From assembly GCA_001662655.1 (NCBI GenBank), contig KV460235.1: a stretch of 64,000 nt of DNA; one strand, 5' to 3'. The DNA is from Pseudogymnoascus verrucosus. Its lineage: Eukaryota. Below the pieces are notes generated by a model, which was not told the DNA's origin, did no database searches, and saw nothing but the letters and a program-made list of their open reading frames with translations. Each line of letters opens with the position of its first letter. Position 1 is the stretch's first letter. Below, piece after piece: positions 4,478 through 10,100 of this stretch. The position numbers and the translations under genes are program-made.

Positions 4478-4540
4478 ACATACAACAGTGGGTATTCGCT
4501 GGTGGTCACCCACCCAACTACTAATCCACCGATCTCAAGC
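4478..4540 (-). rRNA. 5S rRNA gene, 3' part (63 nt) of an interrupted copy
   Basis: Identical to 11112-11174 of the intact copy and followed on the minus strand by T-runs (Pol III terminator). Identity stops abruptly after ...GATCTCAAGC. Confidence 0.95.
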
Positions 4541-4698
4541 AATCCTCTAGCTAATAGTTAAATCGGGGTTTCATCTAGCCTAGTGGGTGAGCCCCGCCGC
4601 CCTTACCTTTATTTGTAATCGCGACTATCTCGACTCCTCGACTACCTAAAAGTGGGTCTTATTTTTACAACGCGTTATATCGCGAGTGGACGCCTATG

Positions 4699-4770
4699 GG
4701 TGAGTGGGTGAGCATGCTAAGCAAGGTGAGCATGGTGAGCAGGGTGAGGAGGTGAGCTAGATGGGTGAGC
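4699..4770. repeat. Cluster of 7 GGTGAG motifs (plus one at ~4586) near the left end of the insertion
   Basis: gggtgagtgggtgagcatgctaagcaaggtgagcatggtgagcagggtgaggaggtgagctagatgggtgagc. Confidence 0.75.
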
Positions 4771-5605
4771 AAGGGGAGTACGGACGAACTAAGAAAATGG
4801 TATAAAGGGCTAGTCACCCGCTTCATATTTTATAGCCTCTGTCTACATCATATATATTTTTTGTTAAGGTGACTGCTACTATGGGACGACTAGTCCTTAC
4901 TCCTGACGACAGACTTGCTATCGCACAAAGGCGAGGTTATACTGTACAGTTGAGAGACGGAGATTGCTTTTGTTGGACTTTGTAACCAGTTACCACTTAC
5001 GAGTAATGGGCTAATTTGAACCAACATGCATGATAATCGACAAGCTTGTATCACAGAGGGCGGCATCCGCTGCCCCTGCCTGGTCCGCTACCCCCTTCAC
5101 CGCGCAAGCTAATACCATAACCCCAGCCTTCACAACAGTCAAGGACGGCTGGCGTGGCGCACCACGGCGCGGACGTCGTGCCGCGGGGGAAATCGTAGGT
5201 CCCACATGTGGCGTCTGTGGCGTCTGTGGGAGCTGTATGATTTGGAAGTTGATCCAGGGGAGCTGGATGATCTAGCGGAGAGGGAGCCAGGCGTTTGGAG
5301 CGGCTGGTTGATCATTGGGAGAAGTAGTTTGTGGATACGGGGATGGTACAGACGCCTGATTTTGCTCTGACGAAGGCGTATGCCGCATTGACAGCGTTGC
5401 ATTTTCTATCGTGACATTCGTTGACGTAGCTATCATTAGCCCATGGGGTCTGTGATTTCGACAGTTTCCCGCATTATGACTCCTATGGCCTGCACTGCAT
5501 CATTCAGCCTTTCACCCGCTCGTACTATTCCGGCCCTTCCTTCACAACTCTACTTATTATTGGCTTGTCGTCTTACAACTTGCTGAGATACATGGTTTTC
5601 AAGAT

Positions 5606-6100
5606 GAGTGCAAAGCTGATGGACATCACTCAGAACGGCTTTATCGATGAATACGCTTCTGACTTTCAATCAGCTACTGCAAACTCAAAATGAACGATGC
5701 GGCGCTGACCGCTCATTTCCATGCGGGGTTGCGAGATGAGATTAAGGATTTGCTCATCTCGAAAGACCGATCAGAAAAACCGAGCATCTTCAGCTTGAAG
5801 TCAATAGAACTCCAAATTCTTGCTATGTATAGGAGATTGGCCAAAAATCAGCAACTCGAAACATGTCGTCAGGACGGTTCTATTGAAGATTATATCTCTG
5901 GATTCAAAACACTAGCACAAGGATTTGAAGGCCATGAACTGTCGTTGGTCTCTGACCTATATCATGGACTGGGGGACAAGATGAAATCGACCCTAGGACT
6001 GGCCGATACGGCCAAAAGGTACCTAGAAGCGCTCACATTAGTTCTTTCAACAAGCAGGCGGAGACAAGTTAAGGAAATTAGAAACGACAGGAGCGATTAA
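5606..6100 (+). pseudogene. Retrotransposon gag (capsid)-like relic, frameshifted
   Basis: ITQNGFIDEYASDFQ ... NDAALTAHFHAGLRDEIKDLL and CRQDGSIEDYISGFKTLA...LYHGL resemble the Ty3/gypsy gag QxGSVxDYxxxF and FxxGL motifs, present twice. A frameshift lies near 5690. No pol or LTRs seen. Confidence 0.6.
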
Positions 6101-6210
6101 TACAAAAGCGTGCTACTGGTTGGGGTGCGCGAGAAATCCTTGCCTTGGTAAAGTGGTGTGCCGCTCGGCACAAGCTTGCTAGCGCCCGTTGCGAGAGCAA
6201 CAGAGCGGAT

Positions 6211-6628
6211 TTAGAGCACGTCTAGCCTCTCGTATCGAGTTTGTCCCCTGCAGCATCAGCTGATGAGCGGCTCCTCGTCTTCTAACTGTGCAACCTCTCT
6301 CTTATTGATACTGGTAGGCCGCAGGACGATAATAACTGGGGTTCTTCCTCGCTCGACCCTGCACGCCAGTTTAGAGCACGTCTAGCCTCTCGTATCGAGT
6401 TTGTCACCTGCAGCATCAGCTGATGAGCAGCTCGTCGTTTTCTAACTGTGCAACCTCTCTCTTATTGATACCGATAGGGCGCAGGACGATAATAACTAGG
6501 GTTCTTCCTCGCTCGGCCCTGCACGCCACCAGTTTAGAGCACTTCTAGCCTCTCGTATCGAGTTTATCCCTGCGGCGGCATCAGCTGATGAGCGGCTCCT
6601 CGTTTTCTAACTGTGCAACCTCTCTCTT
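6211..6628. repeat. Tandem repeat, ~160-163 bp unit, ~2.6 copies
   Basis: Units start TTAGAGCAC at 6211, 6371 and 6534, with few substitutions. Each contains the perfect palindrome CATCAGCTGATG. Confidence 0.95.
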
Positions 6629-7422: not shown

Positions 7423-7430
7423 TATATAAA
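7423..7430 (+). promoter_or_regulatory. Candidate TATA box of the secreted-protein gene
   Basis: TATATAAA ~165 bp upstream of the ATG at 7594. Confidence 0.45.
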
Positions 7431-7593
7431 GACCCCTATCTCCCCTCATAAGCCTCTAAATCGTTTGCTACGTTAATCAGATTTCGATACCCAAACCAAT
7501 ACCCAAAGTTACGAAGCTGCTTTTGAAACGTCTCAAATTTCATACCGTCAACCCCCAGAGATTTGTCCCAGCCTCCTTAAACAATATCCAACA

Positions 7594-8040
7594 ATGCAAC
7601 TCACCACAATGCTCCTCGCTGCGGTCGTCACCGCTGGCATCATCGCCGCCCCGGCTCCAGCCCCCGCCGACGCCAAGTCCATGATGGCCAACGTAGCCCA
7701 GTGGACGATCGAGCGAATGGTGCGCACCTGCAACGCGGCAGACACCTCCTGTACATGGTCTTTTAACATCGCAACGCACACGGCGAATCCGACGCCATGC
7801 CAGTACACGGTGACGGGAAAGCCCGCGTCTCATGCTTCTACTAATGGGGTTCACTGTGGGGGATTCACCATCAGTTCCGGGTGGAGCGGACAGTTCGGTC
7901 CCGGCAACGGTTTCACGACGCTGTCGGTCGTTGATAACTCGAACAAGCTGATTGTGTGGCCCGCTTATACCGACAAACAGCTGGCTAATGGGGTTGTGGT
8001 TACACCTAACCAGAGCTATGCGCCTGTGACTTTAGGTTAA
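7594..8040 (+). CDS. Small secreted cysteine-containing protein, Hrip1/surface-protein-1 (Alt a 1-like) elicitor family
   Basis: Signal peptide MQLTTMLLAAVVTAGIIA and 4 Cys. Motifs WTIE..RTC.AADTSCTWSF and SGWSGQFGPGNGFTTLSVVD...IVWPAYTD recall Hrip1-type proteins. Intact and intronless. Confidence 0.85.
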   Translation: MQLTTMLLAAVVTAGIIAAPAPAPADAKSMMANVAQWTIERMVRTCNAADTSCTWSFNIATHTANPTPCQYTVTGKPASHASTNGVHCGGFTISSGWSGQFGPGNGFTTLSVVDNSNKLIVWPAYTDKQLANGVVVTPNQSYAPVTLG

Positions 8041-8229
8041 AGCCGAGAGAGACACGGGTTGGCTACTAAGAAACCGCTGCAGTTCTGTTTCAAGTAGATA
8101 TATATTTAATATTAGTTACAGTTAGGCAGATAGTGGCGAAGTAAATGTGAATTTGTTATGGCTTGTCTACTGCTCTCACAATCTCTGAACTATCCAGAAT
8201 CTTCGCACCTTTTCAGCGTCACTCTTGTC

Positions 8230-9520
8230 TCATCATATATTTATCATGGCTCCGACAGATACAACAACTTCATCGAGCATCCCTAACTCGGCGTCATCCG
8301 AGGATGATTTAATTGTAGTTGACGTTTCGGGTCTACTTATGCAGACAGAAGACAAAGATCACAGCTTAGTGGGCTTCTCAGATCCTATGTAATTGCGCAT
8401 ATTTTCGGTCCTTCCCCCGCCTCGAAAGTCGGATTCGAAATTGGCACTTGCATCAATAGCGATGTCCAAATGAGATTGGGCTCCCTTCGCACTAGGTTCT
8501 CGAGGCCCCAGCTGTCGTAATCCGGCTGTCCTTGATTTGTAACCGCCTTTCTCGGAAAGACTTCCTAGATCTTCCTTCTTTGATCTACGCTAAGGGCATT
8601 ATAGTTGATCTTGAACTGGATTTTGCTAGCGATAGCATCATCAATGTGTGCGACCCAATTAGTCGTCAGGAACTTAATCCCCTGATAATATTTAAGCGTT
8701 CGTAAGAATACATAGACTATAGCATTGCGAATTATCACTAAGGGCAAGTGCTGCTCTAAGTAAACATCTGCTCCATTAAGTAGGAGAAGAGCTTTCCATT
8801 TTAAAGCGCGTTGGAAGATACCTAGAATGCGCGCCTTAACGCTCTCTGCACTCGTGCCCAGCTCGCCCGCAGAGACCTGTATTATTAGTACGTGCAGTAA
8901 GATGATGTATAAGCGGATATACTAAATATAGTAGCTTCCGAAGATGCTTAGATAGGACCTTAGCTATCAAGGCCTTCCCTACACCTAGTGGGCTGCTATA
9001 TGAAAGTTAGTATACTATTATTAGTTCATAAGATCACTCACAGTACTGCAGGAGCACATTAAGGCCTTGGCCTTTCCCAACTACGAAATCTTCGAAGCCG
9101 TCGCCAGATGCTCGCCAGATGCTCGCCTCATGTGCGCCTAGGAAAGAGCCTGCATAGCCTTCTTTTTCTTGTCGGAGATTTGGAGATGGGCGAGAGCAGC
9201 AGGCTGCCATTCGATGTCAGACGTGTCAGCTAGTCAGGGATCTCAATTATACTGAATCCAAGATGCTTACGCCATAACTTCTTGCCTAACTGCAATGTGC
9301 TTGTCTACACATTCGCCAAACTGTACAAAATCAGACATGCGGCACTTTCGTACGAAAATGCAACCCTTCCAGTATTATAAAAGCGAAAAGGACGATCAAG
9401 CCTAAATTGTGAACTAGATACTAGAACATGCTCTAGAGCAACACAGCTCGTGTTGCTTCCCATGATGCAAATGCCATCCAACAGTGGTTTCATGAATTCA
9501 AAGACTTCAGCAATCAATTA
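8230..9520 (-). pseudogene. Decayed fungal AAA+ ATPase (P-loop) gene
   Basis: Minus strand reads FEDFVVGKGQGLNVLL, SPLGVGKALIAK (degenerate Walker A GPPGVGKTLTAE), ALLLLNGADVYLE (degenerate Walker B LLDEADVFLE) and RNAIVYVFLRTLKYYQGIKFLTTN, with stops and frameshifts. Ends approximate. Confidence 0.82.
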
Positions 9521-10044
9521 AATATTACTATAGCGAACCTGTATAACTTTGACGAAGTTGGTGGGAATGAGCACCAGTGAACATGTGTTAGTGCCTACAA
9601 CAGTGAAGAGGGTCGTATACGTTAAGCAAGACCCCCGCCTACCAAAATGGGCAAGAATCGTCCCCTGTTAGGGAAAGGTCAAGCTTCGATCGACAAGCCT
9701 GACAAGCCAAAACCCTCGTTGGTTCGGTGACGATCTCGCGGCTTAGCCAACGAGGATGCTAGGCCCGTTGGTTTCCGCCCCGATTGCAAGAGATGGGTGC
9801 AGCTAGCCGCTATTCACATAAACTACAAACAATAAACATGCCTTCTTTGCGATCTAAATTACTAAGAATGTCTACAAATTTAGAATAGCATTGCTACATA
9901 CAGCTGACACCTCCCTTTCAAAGTCATGCCGTGCCTTCAGTTGACTCGGCAGTTATTAGACAGGTATCATCCTCCTCCGCACTCGGTGTGAAAGATCTGT
10001 GCCTCAAAACGGTTGGTTTAACTTAGTGGTTGGGGCCAGAGCCC

Positions 10045-10100
10045 TTGTGTATGGCAGAGCGGACGGGATGCCCAATTCTCTTGAGTCTATGGTCATATGT
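10045..10100 (-). rRNA. 5S rRNA gene, 5' part (56 nt) of the interrupted copy
   Basis: Matches 11175-11230 except for one transition (ggtcatatgt vs ggtcgtatgt). Confidence 0.95.

What the first reader, a model, noticed from the sequence alone, without database searches (positions are those of the whole stretch)
4478..10100. 5S rRNA gene split precisely by a 5.5-kb cargo-carrying element with no recognisable mobilase
Seen: 4478-4540 (63 nt) plus 10045-10100 (56 nt) reconstitute the 119-nt 5S gene found intact at 11112-11230, with one substitution. The break (plus strand CTCAAGC^TTGTG) loses no bases and shows no obvious target-site duplication beyond a 1-nt C ambiguity. It falls at about nt 56/57, in the box A region of the internal Pol III promoter. 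Known: some fungal Starship elements, mobilised by DUF3435 tyrosine recombinases, target dispersed 5S rDNA and are typically tens to hundreds of kb. Inference: this is a miniature non-autonomous or internally deleted 5S-targeting element that uses redundant 5S genes as safe harbours. Near-perfect 5S halves suggest a fairly recent insertion although the interior is decayed, which implies mobilisation in trans.
Basis: partly seen in the sequence, partly recalled or inferred. Interest (0 to 1): 0.92.

Follow-up and report, generated by a model that had tools for sequence, protein, structure and literature searches.

The report
Recombinase-less cargo insert splitting 5S gene
A 5S ribosomal RNA gene of a Pseudogymnoascus-type fungus is cut cleanly in two by a 5.5-kb insert that carries one intact secreted-protein gene and no recombinase, and it looks like a small, old, dependent relative of the giant Starship transposons.

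Summary
4478-4540 plus 10045-10100 rebuild the intact 5S gene at 11111-11230 (118 of 119 identical, no base lost, no duplication beyond 1 nt). The break lies at, or 1 nt from, the centre of the palindrome CAAGCTTG (5S nt 54-61).

The 5,504-bp insert has no recombinase or transposase domain in any frame, no terminal inverted repeats and no direct repeats. It holds one intact gene, a small secreted protein like Trichoderma Tsp1. The rest is debris: a gag-like ORF, an AAA-ATPase pseudogene and 160-bp tandem repeats.

Its left ~250 bp, with six GGTGAGC motifs, is multi-copy (about 3-11x) in four related public assemblies. The right end recurs at least twice in one of them. So it belongs to a repeat family with defined ends.

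The insertion is not recent. Three close relatives (0.3-1.8% divergent) and one distant one carry the insert. In the distant one the insert and the 1-kb spacer differ by 3-5%, while the neighbouring gene differs by 14.5%, which hints at transfer between lineages. No empty site was seen.

Best reading (about 0.45): a captain-less derivative of a site-specific, Starship-type element. Starship membership is unproven, because the captain and the 6-16-bp direct repeats are both missing.

The parts
4478..4540 (-). 3' half of the split 5S rRNA gene (sense nt 57-119)
   Evidence: 64/64 identical to 11111-11174. Partial RF00001 hit at 4477-4558.
4541..10044 (.). 5,504-bp insert with no recombinase gene
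   Evidence: Lies between the two 5S halves. No Pfam recombinase or transposase in 74 ORF pieces of 40 aa or more, or in six read-through frames.
4541..4790 (+). Left terminal region, multi-copy in related genomes
   Evidence: At 4594, run X2 has depth 538 in 10 contigs against 48.5 single-copy; X12 has 513 in 9 contigs against about 60; X6 and X19 have 3 contigs each. Joints 4564>4697 and 4601>4720 show shorter variants.
4586..4770 (+). Array of six GGTGAGC motifs, partly at 9-bp spacing
   Evidence: 6 of the 7 plus-strand occurrences in the 64-kb window lie here. Repeat family D4.
5663..6097 (+). gag-like ORF fragment (retroelement debris)
   Evidence: Pfam Retrotrans_gag E 4.1e-4, 21 bits, below the 24.1-bit cut-off. 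In the Atlas, 11 of 30 feature hits are Retrotrans_gag clusters, with scores up to 0.94. This is a lead only.
6206..6628 (.). About 2.6 tandem copies of a 160-bp unit
   Evidence: Families D1-D3. Self-BLAST 92% identity. Run X12 skips 6261-6752.
7594..8040 (+). Intact gene for a 148-aa small secreted protein, homologous to Tsp1
   Evidence: 414 homologues found; best is 95% identical in a Pseudogymnoascus sp.; precomputed family PF27986. PDB 7CWJ (Trichoderma Tsp1) matches at E 3.1e-44 over residues 21-147.
8499..9038 (-). AAA-ATPase pseudogene fragment (open piece 8568-8921)
   Evidence: Atlas score 0.93 with 205 shared features; 26 of 30 hits are AAA (PF00004) clusters. Stops in frame. No Pfam hit.
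9765..10044 (+). Right terminal region, recurring in a related genome
   Evidence: Run X6 records 27 and 28 (contigs of 2,212 and 871 nt) match 9765-10041 and 9805-10041 with 32 and 16 differences. Both stop 3 nt before the boundary.
10045..10100 (-). 5' half of the split 5S rRNA gene (sense nt 1-56)
   Evidence: 55 of 56 nt identical to 11175-11230; BLAST counts 56/57 over 10044-10100. Bridged to the insert by X2 record 20.
10101..11110 (.). 1-kb spacer between the split and the intact 5S gene
   Evidence: No Pfam family in its ORFs. Single-copy in X2 and X12. 4.6% divergent in X12 (record 5).
11111..11230 (-). Intact 5S rRNA gene, co-oriented with the split one
   Evidence: RF00001, 74.2 bits, E 7.7e-14.

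Best explanation
One 5S rRNA gene in a small co-oriented 5S group was split by site-specific insertion of a mobile cassette at the dyad of the palindrome CAAGCTTG (5S nt 54-61, inside box A). The cassette has asymmetric ends, makes no target duplication and encodes no enzyme of its own. It is most likely a captain-less derivative, either non-autonomous or internally deleted, of a tyrosine-recombinase (Starship-type) element. Such a derivative would have been moved by a recombinase encoded elsewhere in the genome, which recognises the 5S palindrome and the element ends. The GGTGAGC array at the left end is the candidate binding site. The insertion is old: it is inherited by close relatives, and it may have been passed between more distant lineages. 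It now persists as a decayed carrier of one still-intact Tsp1-like secreted-protein gene. SHOWN: the clean split, the position in the palindrome, the absence of direct repeats, inverted repeats and recombinase, the cargo content, the multi-copy ends, and presence in four other assemblies. INFERRED: the recombinase class, mobilisation in trans, the role of the motif array, and transfer between lineages.
For: Clean split with a 1-nt ambiguity at the palindrome centre. The left end is multi-copy in 4 of 4 runs laid, at about 3-11 times single-copy depth, with 3-10 contigs at position 4594. The right end recurs in 2 further contigs of run X6, both ending at 10041. Contig numbers for the left end differ between close relatives (10 in X2, 3 in X6 and 3 in X19), which fits past activity. 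6 of 7 GGTGAGC motifs in the window are clustered at the left end. In print, 23% of 222 curated Starship insertion sites lie in 5S rDNA, at five or more distinct internal positions, and some targets are palindromes (PMC11162782, passages). Also in print, the Enterprise type element targets a 10-12-bp palindrome (PMC11162782, passages). Here nt 52-63 form a 12-bp palindrome with one mismatched pair. The 19 Pseudogymnoascus sp. genomes surveyed in that paper each hold 5-33 Starship recombinase genes (its table S8), so enzymes in trans are plausible. In run X12 the insert plus spacer differ by 159 of 3,488 positions (4.6%; records 2, 3, 5). The adjacent mitochondrial-carrier gene differs by 145 of 999 (14.5%; record 6).
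Against: No DUF3435 or other recombinase remnant was found in the insert or in 101 ORFs of 110 aa or more across the window. There are no direct repeats, whereas 5S-targeting Starships have 6-16 bp. At 5.5 kb it is far below described Starships (27-393 kb in PMC9156397; the shortest manually curated element seen in table S1 is 14.6 kb). No empty site was found, and no listed joint connects 4540 to 10045 (15 of 43 joints were shown). The two extra right-end copies in X6 do not run on into a 5S half, so that end is not always beside a 5S gene. The right end has fewer copies than the left, so this copy may not have a canonical right terminus. Contig depths are not copy numbers. X12 record 6 could be a paralogue.
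Confidence: 0.45

Rival explanations
1. Copying driven by 5S homology, with no dedicated recombinase. Once an insert sits between two 5S halves, a break in another 5S gene can be repaired from the split copy. The 63-nt and 56-nt halves serve as homology arms, so the insert is copied precisely and without duplication, like intron homing. The cassette would spread among the dispersed 5S genes and, after hyphal fusion, between lineages.
For: It explains the absence of direct repeats, inverted repeats and any enzyme. It explains why the left end has more copies than the interior or the right end, through partial conversion tracts. It explains why the low-divergence block in X12 is bounded by 5S sequence on both sides. 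Exchange of short fragments between Pseudogymnoascus lineages is published (PMC4438637, passages).
Against: It does not explain the first insertion at the palindrome centre. It does not explain a motif array confined to one end. Homology arms of 56-63 nt are short. The two extra right-end copies in X6 are not followed by a 5S half.
Confidence: 0.15
2. One-off event, not a mobile unit. Either a break at the palindrome was filled with a patchwork of repeat-rich DNA, or two neighbouring 5S genes that were each split at the same site by different elements were joined by deletion. In both cases the present 5.5 kb never moved as such.
For: The interior is a mosaic: a gag-like piece, an AAA pseudogene, tandem repeats and one gene. 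The interior and spacer are single-copy in X2 and X12. The two ends differ in copy number. A 5S group lies within 10 kb: the split gene, the intact gene and a pseudogene.
Against: Repeat copies in other genomes stop within 3 nt of the right boundary in 2 of 2 listed contigs. No well-supported loose end at 4541 was among those shown for X2, although 10 contigs lie on the left end. That suggests those copies run on into 5S sequence (24 of 368 loose ends were shown, so this is weak). The 5S halves are exactly complementary.
Confidence: 0.15
3. The mobile unit is larger: 4541-11174 (6.6 kb). It would have integrated by recombination within the 5S 3' part, so that the 64-nt identical segments 4477-4540 and 11111-11174 are its direct repeats. 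The insertion would then rebuild an intact 5S gene at its right end, as integrative elements in bacterial tRNA genes do.
For: 64/64 identity of the two 3' parts. In X12 the spacer is as little diverged (48 of 1,049) as the insert. The stretch between the intact 5S gene and the carrier gene is not covered in that run. A contig with the depth of record 6 joins 11560 to 11180 on the opposite strand.
Against: It still needs a first insertion of 4541-10044 to explain the internal 5' half. A 64-bp repeat is four times the longest direct repeat reported for Starships. The lack of cover is not evidence.
Confidence: 0.1
4. Assembly artefact. The left flank with its 5S 3' half was wrongly joined to a repeat.
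For: The left junction lies between two repeated sequences. It is not bridged by 31 nt or more on both sides in any piece listed.
Against: The right junction is bridged in an independent assembly (X2 record 20). Both flanks and the interior are single-copy and collinear in X2, X6 and X19. The halves are exactly complementary.
Confidence: 0.03

Closest known systems
5S-rDNA-targeting Starships (Voyager; Osiris and other Enterprise-family elements; Arwing family). Sources: PMC9156397, PMC11162782, PMC12153272.
   Same: Found in Pezizomycotina. Inserts inside the 5S coding sequence and breaks the gene. Carries cargo unrelated to transposition. A palindromic target is reported for some members. 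Recombinase genes of this superfamily are numerous in the genus (5-33 per genome).
   Different: No captain gene. No direct repeats, against 6-16 bp. 5.5 kb against tens to hundreds of kb. The position (nt 56-58) differs from Voyager's, which is 20 bp from the 5' end. Whether it matches one of the five published positions could not be checked, because tables S11-S13 and figure 5C are not held.
Degraded Starships and Starship-like regions
   Same: Loss of the captain and decay of the cargo are described for Starships; one degraded element is noted in the A. fumigatus hotspot (PMC12153272).
   Different: Those are large remnants recognised from their relatives. Here both boundaries are clean, the unit is small and its left end is a multi-copy family.
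Integrative elements in bacterial tRNA genes
   Same: They use a conserved, redundant small-RNA gene as an attachment site. Under the 6.6-kb reading the insertion restores an intact gene copy.
   Different: Different domain of life and different enzyme family. The analogy is functional only and was already drawn in PMC9156397.
Helitrons
   Same: No target duplication, asymmetric ends, a mosaic of captured gene fragments, and many non-autonomous copies.
   Different: The insertion is not between A and T (nor T and T). The ends are not 5'-TC and CTRR-3'. There is no Rep/helicase remnant. These end rules are recalled, and were checked against the sequence.

Membership tests
Starship (as defined in PMC11162782) | Captain: a DUF3435 tyrosine recombinase gene at the 5' end | tested here: not met
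   No such hit in 74 ORF pieces (E up to 1), in six read-through frames (E up to 0.1), or in 101 window ORFs of 110 aa or more.
Starship | Direct repeats at both boundaries that match the target core (6-16 bp for 5S targeters) | tested here: not met
   63 + 56 = 119 nt with only a 1-nt overlap. The element ends do not resemble the adjoining 5S sequence.
Starship | Cargo mobilised with the element | tested here: met
   Intact Tsp1-like gene plus gene debris.
Starship | Empty site in another individual (proof of insertion or mobility) | tested here: inconclusive
   4 runs were laid. No listed joint skips 4541-10044 (15 of 43 joints shown). All four runs hold the insert.
Starship | Insertion in a 5S rDNA coding sequence (a trait of some families, not defining) | tested here: met
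Helitron | 5'-TC and CTRR-3' ends, insertion between A and T, Rep/helicase | tested here: not met
   The host bases at the cut are C|T (or G|C). The ends read AATCC... and ...GAGCCC. No helicase domain. The end rules are recalled.
Cut-and-paste DNA transposon or MITE | Terminal inverted repeats and a target-site duplication | tested here: not met
   Best left-versus-reversed-right alignment scores 19, against a shuffle mean of 17.4 and maximum of 25. No duplication.
LTR or non-LTR retrotransposon | Long terminal direct repeats or a 3' tail, a target duplication, and reverse transcriptase | tested here: not met
   No terminal direct repeats. Only a sub-threshold gag-like piece.
5S rRNA (RF00001) | Covariance-model score above the gathering threshold | tested here: met
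   The intact copy scores 74.2 bits against a threshold of 38. The halves together are 118/119 identical to it.
Tsp1-like small secreted proteins (PF27986; PDB 7CWJ) | Sequence homology over the mature domain | tested here: met
   E 3.1e-44 over residues 21-147. The precomputed PF27986 domain is on all 120 listed homologues. The local Pfam copy lacks this model.

The most novel reading that the evidence does not exclude
Dispersed 5S rRNA genes serve as a shared docking network for a family of small cassettes that have no recombinase and make no repeats. The cassettes enter exactly at the box-A palindrome. They would spread within and between Pseudogymnoascus lineages either through Starship captains acting in trans or through 5S-homology-driven copying. 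That would give fungi an integron-like way to pass around single genes such as secreted effectors.
Probability: 0.2. Interest if true: 0.8.

Novelty: new variant of a known kind. Interest (0 to 1): 0.5.

Why it matters
Starships are currently defined and found through their captain gene, and tools such as starfish start from it. Small captain-less derivatives are therefore invisible to surveys. If such cassettes are real and mobile, part of the 5S 'pseudogene' load of filamentous fungi, and some movement of single accessory genes, would be due to them. They would also be the simplest substrates for working out what a captain recognises. My searches found no paper describing non-autonomous or miniature Starships. 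In the one paper I opened for the term (PMC12506042), 'non-autonomous' refers to a Tc1/mariner element.

Tried and rejected
1. Helitron, TIR/TSD transposon and LTR or non-LTR readings. The end features do not fit.

2. Metagenome scan for a 20-nt left-terminus word: 0 matches.

3. Metagenome loci encoding relatives of the secreted protein. 27 loci were found, best 63% identity, none from a close relative. 0 of the 11 longest loci scanned (132,771 bases) hold a 5S gene at gathering score. So the gene family is not generally tied to 5S genes.

4. Loose ends at position 11170 of the intact 5S gene (7-14 contigs per run). I first read these as the end of a second element family with an 8-bp duplication. 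The copy in the window (14337-14417) aligns, with many transitions, to the 5S 3' part as well. They are therefore more likely a diverged 5S pseudogene or variant family, and I dropped that reading.

5. 5S-like motifs in both element ends (an 11 of 12 match at the right end; GGTGAGC against the box-C sequence). Alignment scores were not above shuffles (p 0.06 and 0.18). Rfam found nothing on that strand.

6. No cover of 2300-4363 in run X12. A hole proves nothing, so I did not use it.

7. The X12 joint 4732>10049, which might be a very short family member. It has only 23 letters on one side and the letters between are unknown, so I did not rely on it.

8. A pogo-like transposase motif that I read by eye at about 9437-9600 (+). 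No Pfam support, so it stays unverified.

9. Tables S11-S13 and figure 5C of PMC11162782 (direct repeats and 5S positions of curated elements) are not in the held copy. The target position could not be compared with them.

10. This scan's notes by place and by sequence: nothing for this genome or for look-alikes.

11. The window's whole genome is not held.

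
Full report
OBSERVATION. Rfam finds one complete 5S rRNA gene in the window, at 11111-11230 on the minus strand (74.2 bits). With relaxed thresholds it also finds a partial hit at 4477-4558. Joining 4478-4540 to 10045-10100 gives 119 nt with a single mismatch to the intact gene. 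Identity ends 3 nt and 2 nt outside the gene (BLAST 64/64 and 56/57).

In 5S sense the 5' half is nt 1-56 and the 3' half begins at nt 57. One shared base lets the cut be placed at 57|58. That is the dyad of the 8-bp palindrome CAAGCTTG (nt 54-61). Nt 52-63 form a 12-bp palindrome with one mismatched pair. Nothing is lost and nothing is duplicated.

ORGANISM AND CONTEXT. The one intact gene in the insert has its closest relative (95% identity) in a Pseudogymnoascus sp.. The rest of the window is an ordinary gene-dense chromosome region. It holds a carotenoid-oxygenase-like gene on the left, and a mitochondrial carrier, transporters, INO80, ELP3 and an AP-complex subunit on the right. No recombinase domain occurs in 101 ORFs of 110 aa or more. 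The whole genome is not held.

THE INSERT (4541-10044, 5,504 bp).
- Enzymes: no Pfam recombinase, transposase, reverse transcriptase or helicase in 74 ORF pieces of 40 aa or more (E up to 1), in six read-through frames or in focused read-through pieces.
- Ends: they are not inverted repeats (score 19 against a shuffle mean of 17.4 and maximum of 25) and not direct repeats.
- Left end: 6 of the 7 plus-strand GGTGAGC motifs in the window lie here, partly at 9-bp spacing.
- Sub-threshold gag-like ORF at 5663-6097.
- About 2.6 copies of a 160-bp tandem repeat at 6206-6628.
- Intact 148-aa secreted-protein gene at 7594-8040, homologous to Trichoderma Tsp1 (PDB 7CWJ, E 3.1e-44; 414 homologues across Pezizomycotina).
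- AAA-ATPase pseudogene fragment on the minus strand at about 8499-9038.
- RIP-type composition indices are unremarkable.

RELATED GENOMES. 20 public runs hold part of 3300-11400, and 7 hold half or more of its sampled words. I laid the contigs of four coded runs on 2300-12600 at 80% likeness.

Close relatives, X2, X6 and X19:
- Contigs at single-copy depth cover both flanks, the insert and the spacer.
- X2 differences: 7 in 2,199 (left flank), 7 in 1,534 and 35 in 3,521 (insert), 11 in 1,057 (spacer), 21 in 1,158 (right flank).
- X2 record 20 bridges the right junction by 37 nt.
- No listed piece bridges the left junction by 31 nt on both sides.
- No listed joint skips the insert (15 of 43 joints were shown).
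- The insert therefore predates the split of these lineages. 'Recent' is not supported. One change in 119 nt is compatible with this age.

Distant relative, X12:
- The insert and spacer differ by 16 in 550, 95 in 1,889 and 48 in 1,049 (4.6% overall). There are clean deletions of 8642-9600 and 6261-6752.
- The neighbouring carrier gene differs by 145 in 999 (14.5%, record 6).
- A contig with the depth of record 6 joins 11560 to a 5S 5' part (from 11180) on the opposite strand.
- If record 6 is the orthologue, the decayed non-coding block is three times less diverged than the gene beside it, and it is bounded by 5S sequence.
- That points to movement between lineages, either as a mobile element or by the short-fragment exchange reported for this genus (PMC4438637, passages).
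- Record 6 could be a paralogue, so this remains a hint.

THE ENDS ARE REPEATS. The figures below are for position 4594.

| Run | Depth at 4594 | Contigs | Single-copy depth |
|---|---|---|---|
| X2 | 538 | 10 | 48.5 |
| X12 | 513 | 9 | about 60 |
| X6 | 105 | 3 | about 33 |
| X19 | 16 | 3 | about 4-5 |

- Similar excess holds at 4660-4790. Joints such as 4564>4697 and 4601>4720 reveal shorter variants.
- One diverged X2 contig (record 17, 4526-4752) reaches 15 nt into the 5S half. That is below the tool's bridging rule.
- Two further X6 contigs match 9765-10041 and 9805-10041, and both stop 3 nt before the boundary. Both then continue with unlike sequence, so they are not beside a 5S half.
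- The interior and the spacer are single-copy.
- The insert is therefore one member of a repeat family with defined termini. The left end is commoner than the right. I could not read the flanks of the other copies, which is the main gap.

MECHANISM. The following features fit site-specific recombination better than cut-and-paste, rolling-circle or retro-transposition:
- a precise cut at the centre of a palindrome in a conserved multicopy gene;
- asymmetric ends;
- no duplication;
- a one-sided motif array;
- a multi-copy terminus;
- no enzyme gene in the insert.

The only fungal system known to do this at 5S genes is the Starship family of DUF3435 tyrosine recombinases:
- 23% of 222 curated insertion sites lie in 5S rDNA, at five or more positions;
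- some targets are palindromic;
- direct repeats are 6-16 bp;
- the captain is necessary and sufficient for transposition (PMC11162782, passages; PMC9156397; PMC12153272).

That survey lists 5-33 such recombinase genes in each of 19 Pseudogymnoascus sp. genomes. Only one element in those genomes has resolved boundaries (table S8). A helper in trans is therefore plausible, and small dependents would have been missed. I put this reading at about 0.45.

The missing direct repeats are a real difference. They leave room for four rivals:
- 5S-homology-driven copying (0.15);
- a one-off filling or deletion product (0.15);
- a larger 6.6-kb unit bounded by the two identical 64-nt 5S 3' parts (0.10);
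- an assembly artefact at the left junction (0.03).

COMPARISON AND NOVELTY. It works like a 5S-targeting Starship but fails two defining tests, the captain and the direct repeats, and it is 3 to 70 times smaller. I file it as a new variant of a known kind, not as a member. My searches found no description of non-autonomous or miniature Starships. Notes from other windows of this scan describe similar captain-less inserts in split 5S genes of other fungi. Those are unchecked leads, not support.

VERDICT. The structure is real and clean, and it belongs to a repeat family. It is old rather than recent and is probably no longer moving. It carries an intact Tsp1-like gene. Interest is moderate (0.5). 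The decisive data are the flanks of the other copies and an empty site, both of which need whole genomes that these tools do not hold.

Noticed in passing
window 14337-14417 (minus sense): A third, degenerate 5S copy. Its 5' half (14360-14417) matches at 48 of 58 positions, with 8 transitions and 2 transversions. A barely recognisable 3' part precedes it. Contigs with the same kind of sequence in front of 5S position 11170 occur 7-14 times in each of the four runs laid, so this looks like a diverged 5S pseudogene or variant family.
   Followed up: partly
window 11197 (intact 5S, sense nt 34/35), run X12: Three X12 contigs carry a 5S 5' stub that ends after nt 34, preceded by a shared unlike sequence (agreement 0.86). 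This is a second break point in 5S genes of that lineage, near the CCCGTC motif reported as a Starship direct repeat in Fusarium (table S1).
   Followed up: no
window 4413 and 9739, run X2: One X2 contig at single-copy depth joins 4413 to 9739 on opposite strands. The normal arrangement is also present in X2 (record 16). No matching inverted similarity exists in the window. Unexplained.
   Followed up: partly
window 7594-8040: The cargo protein is a clear homologue of Trichoderma virens Tsp1, a root-induced secreted effector with a solved structure (7CWJ). The family is widespread in Pezizomycotina, and 0 of the 11 longest of 27 metagenome loci (those scanned) hold a 5S gene.
   Followed up: yes
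window 5050-5500: A G+C-rich stretch with overlapping 85-88-aa ORFs on both strands and no family hit. It has about 4-6 times single-copy depth in run X6 only, so it is probably a separate repeat.
   Followed up: no
window 9437-9600 (+): By eye the translation resembles the conserved motif region of pogo/Tc5-type transposases (recalled). Pfam gives no hit, and run X12 lacks 8642-9600.
   Followed up: partly
window 10201-10786: The spacer between the two 5S genes holds ORFs of 125-183 aa on both strands with no Pfam family. The spacer is conserved at 95% in the distant run X12.
   Followed up: no
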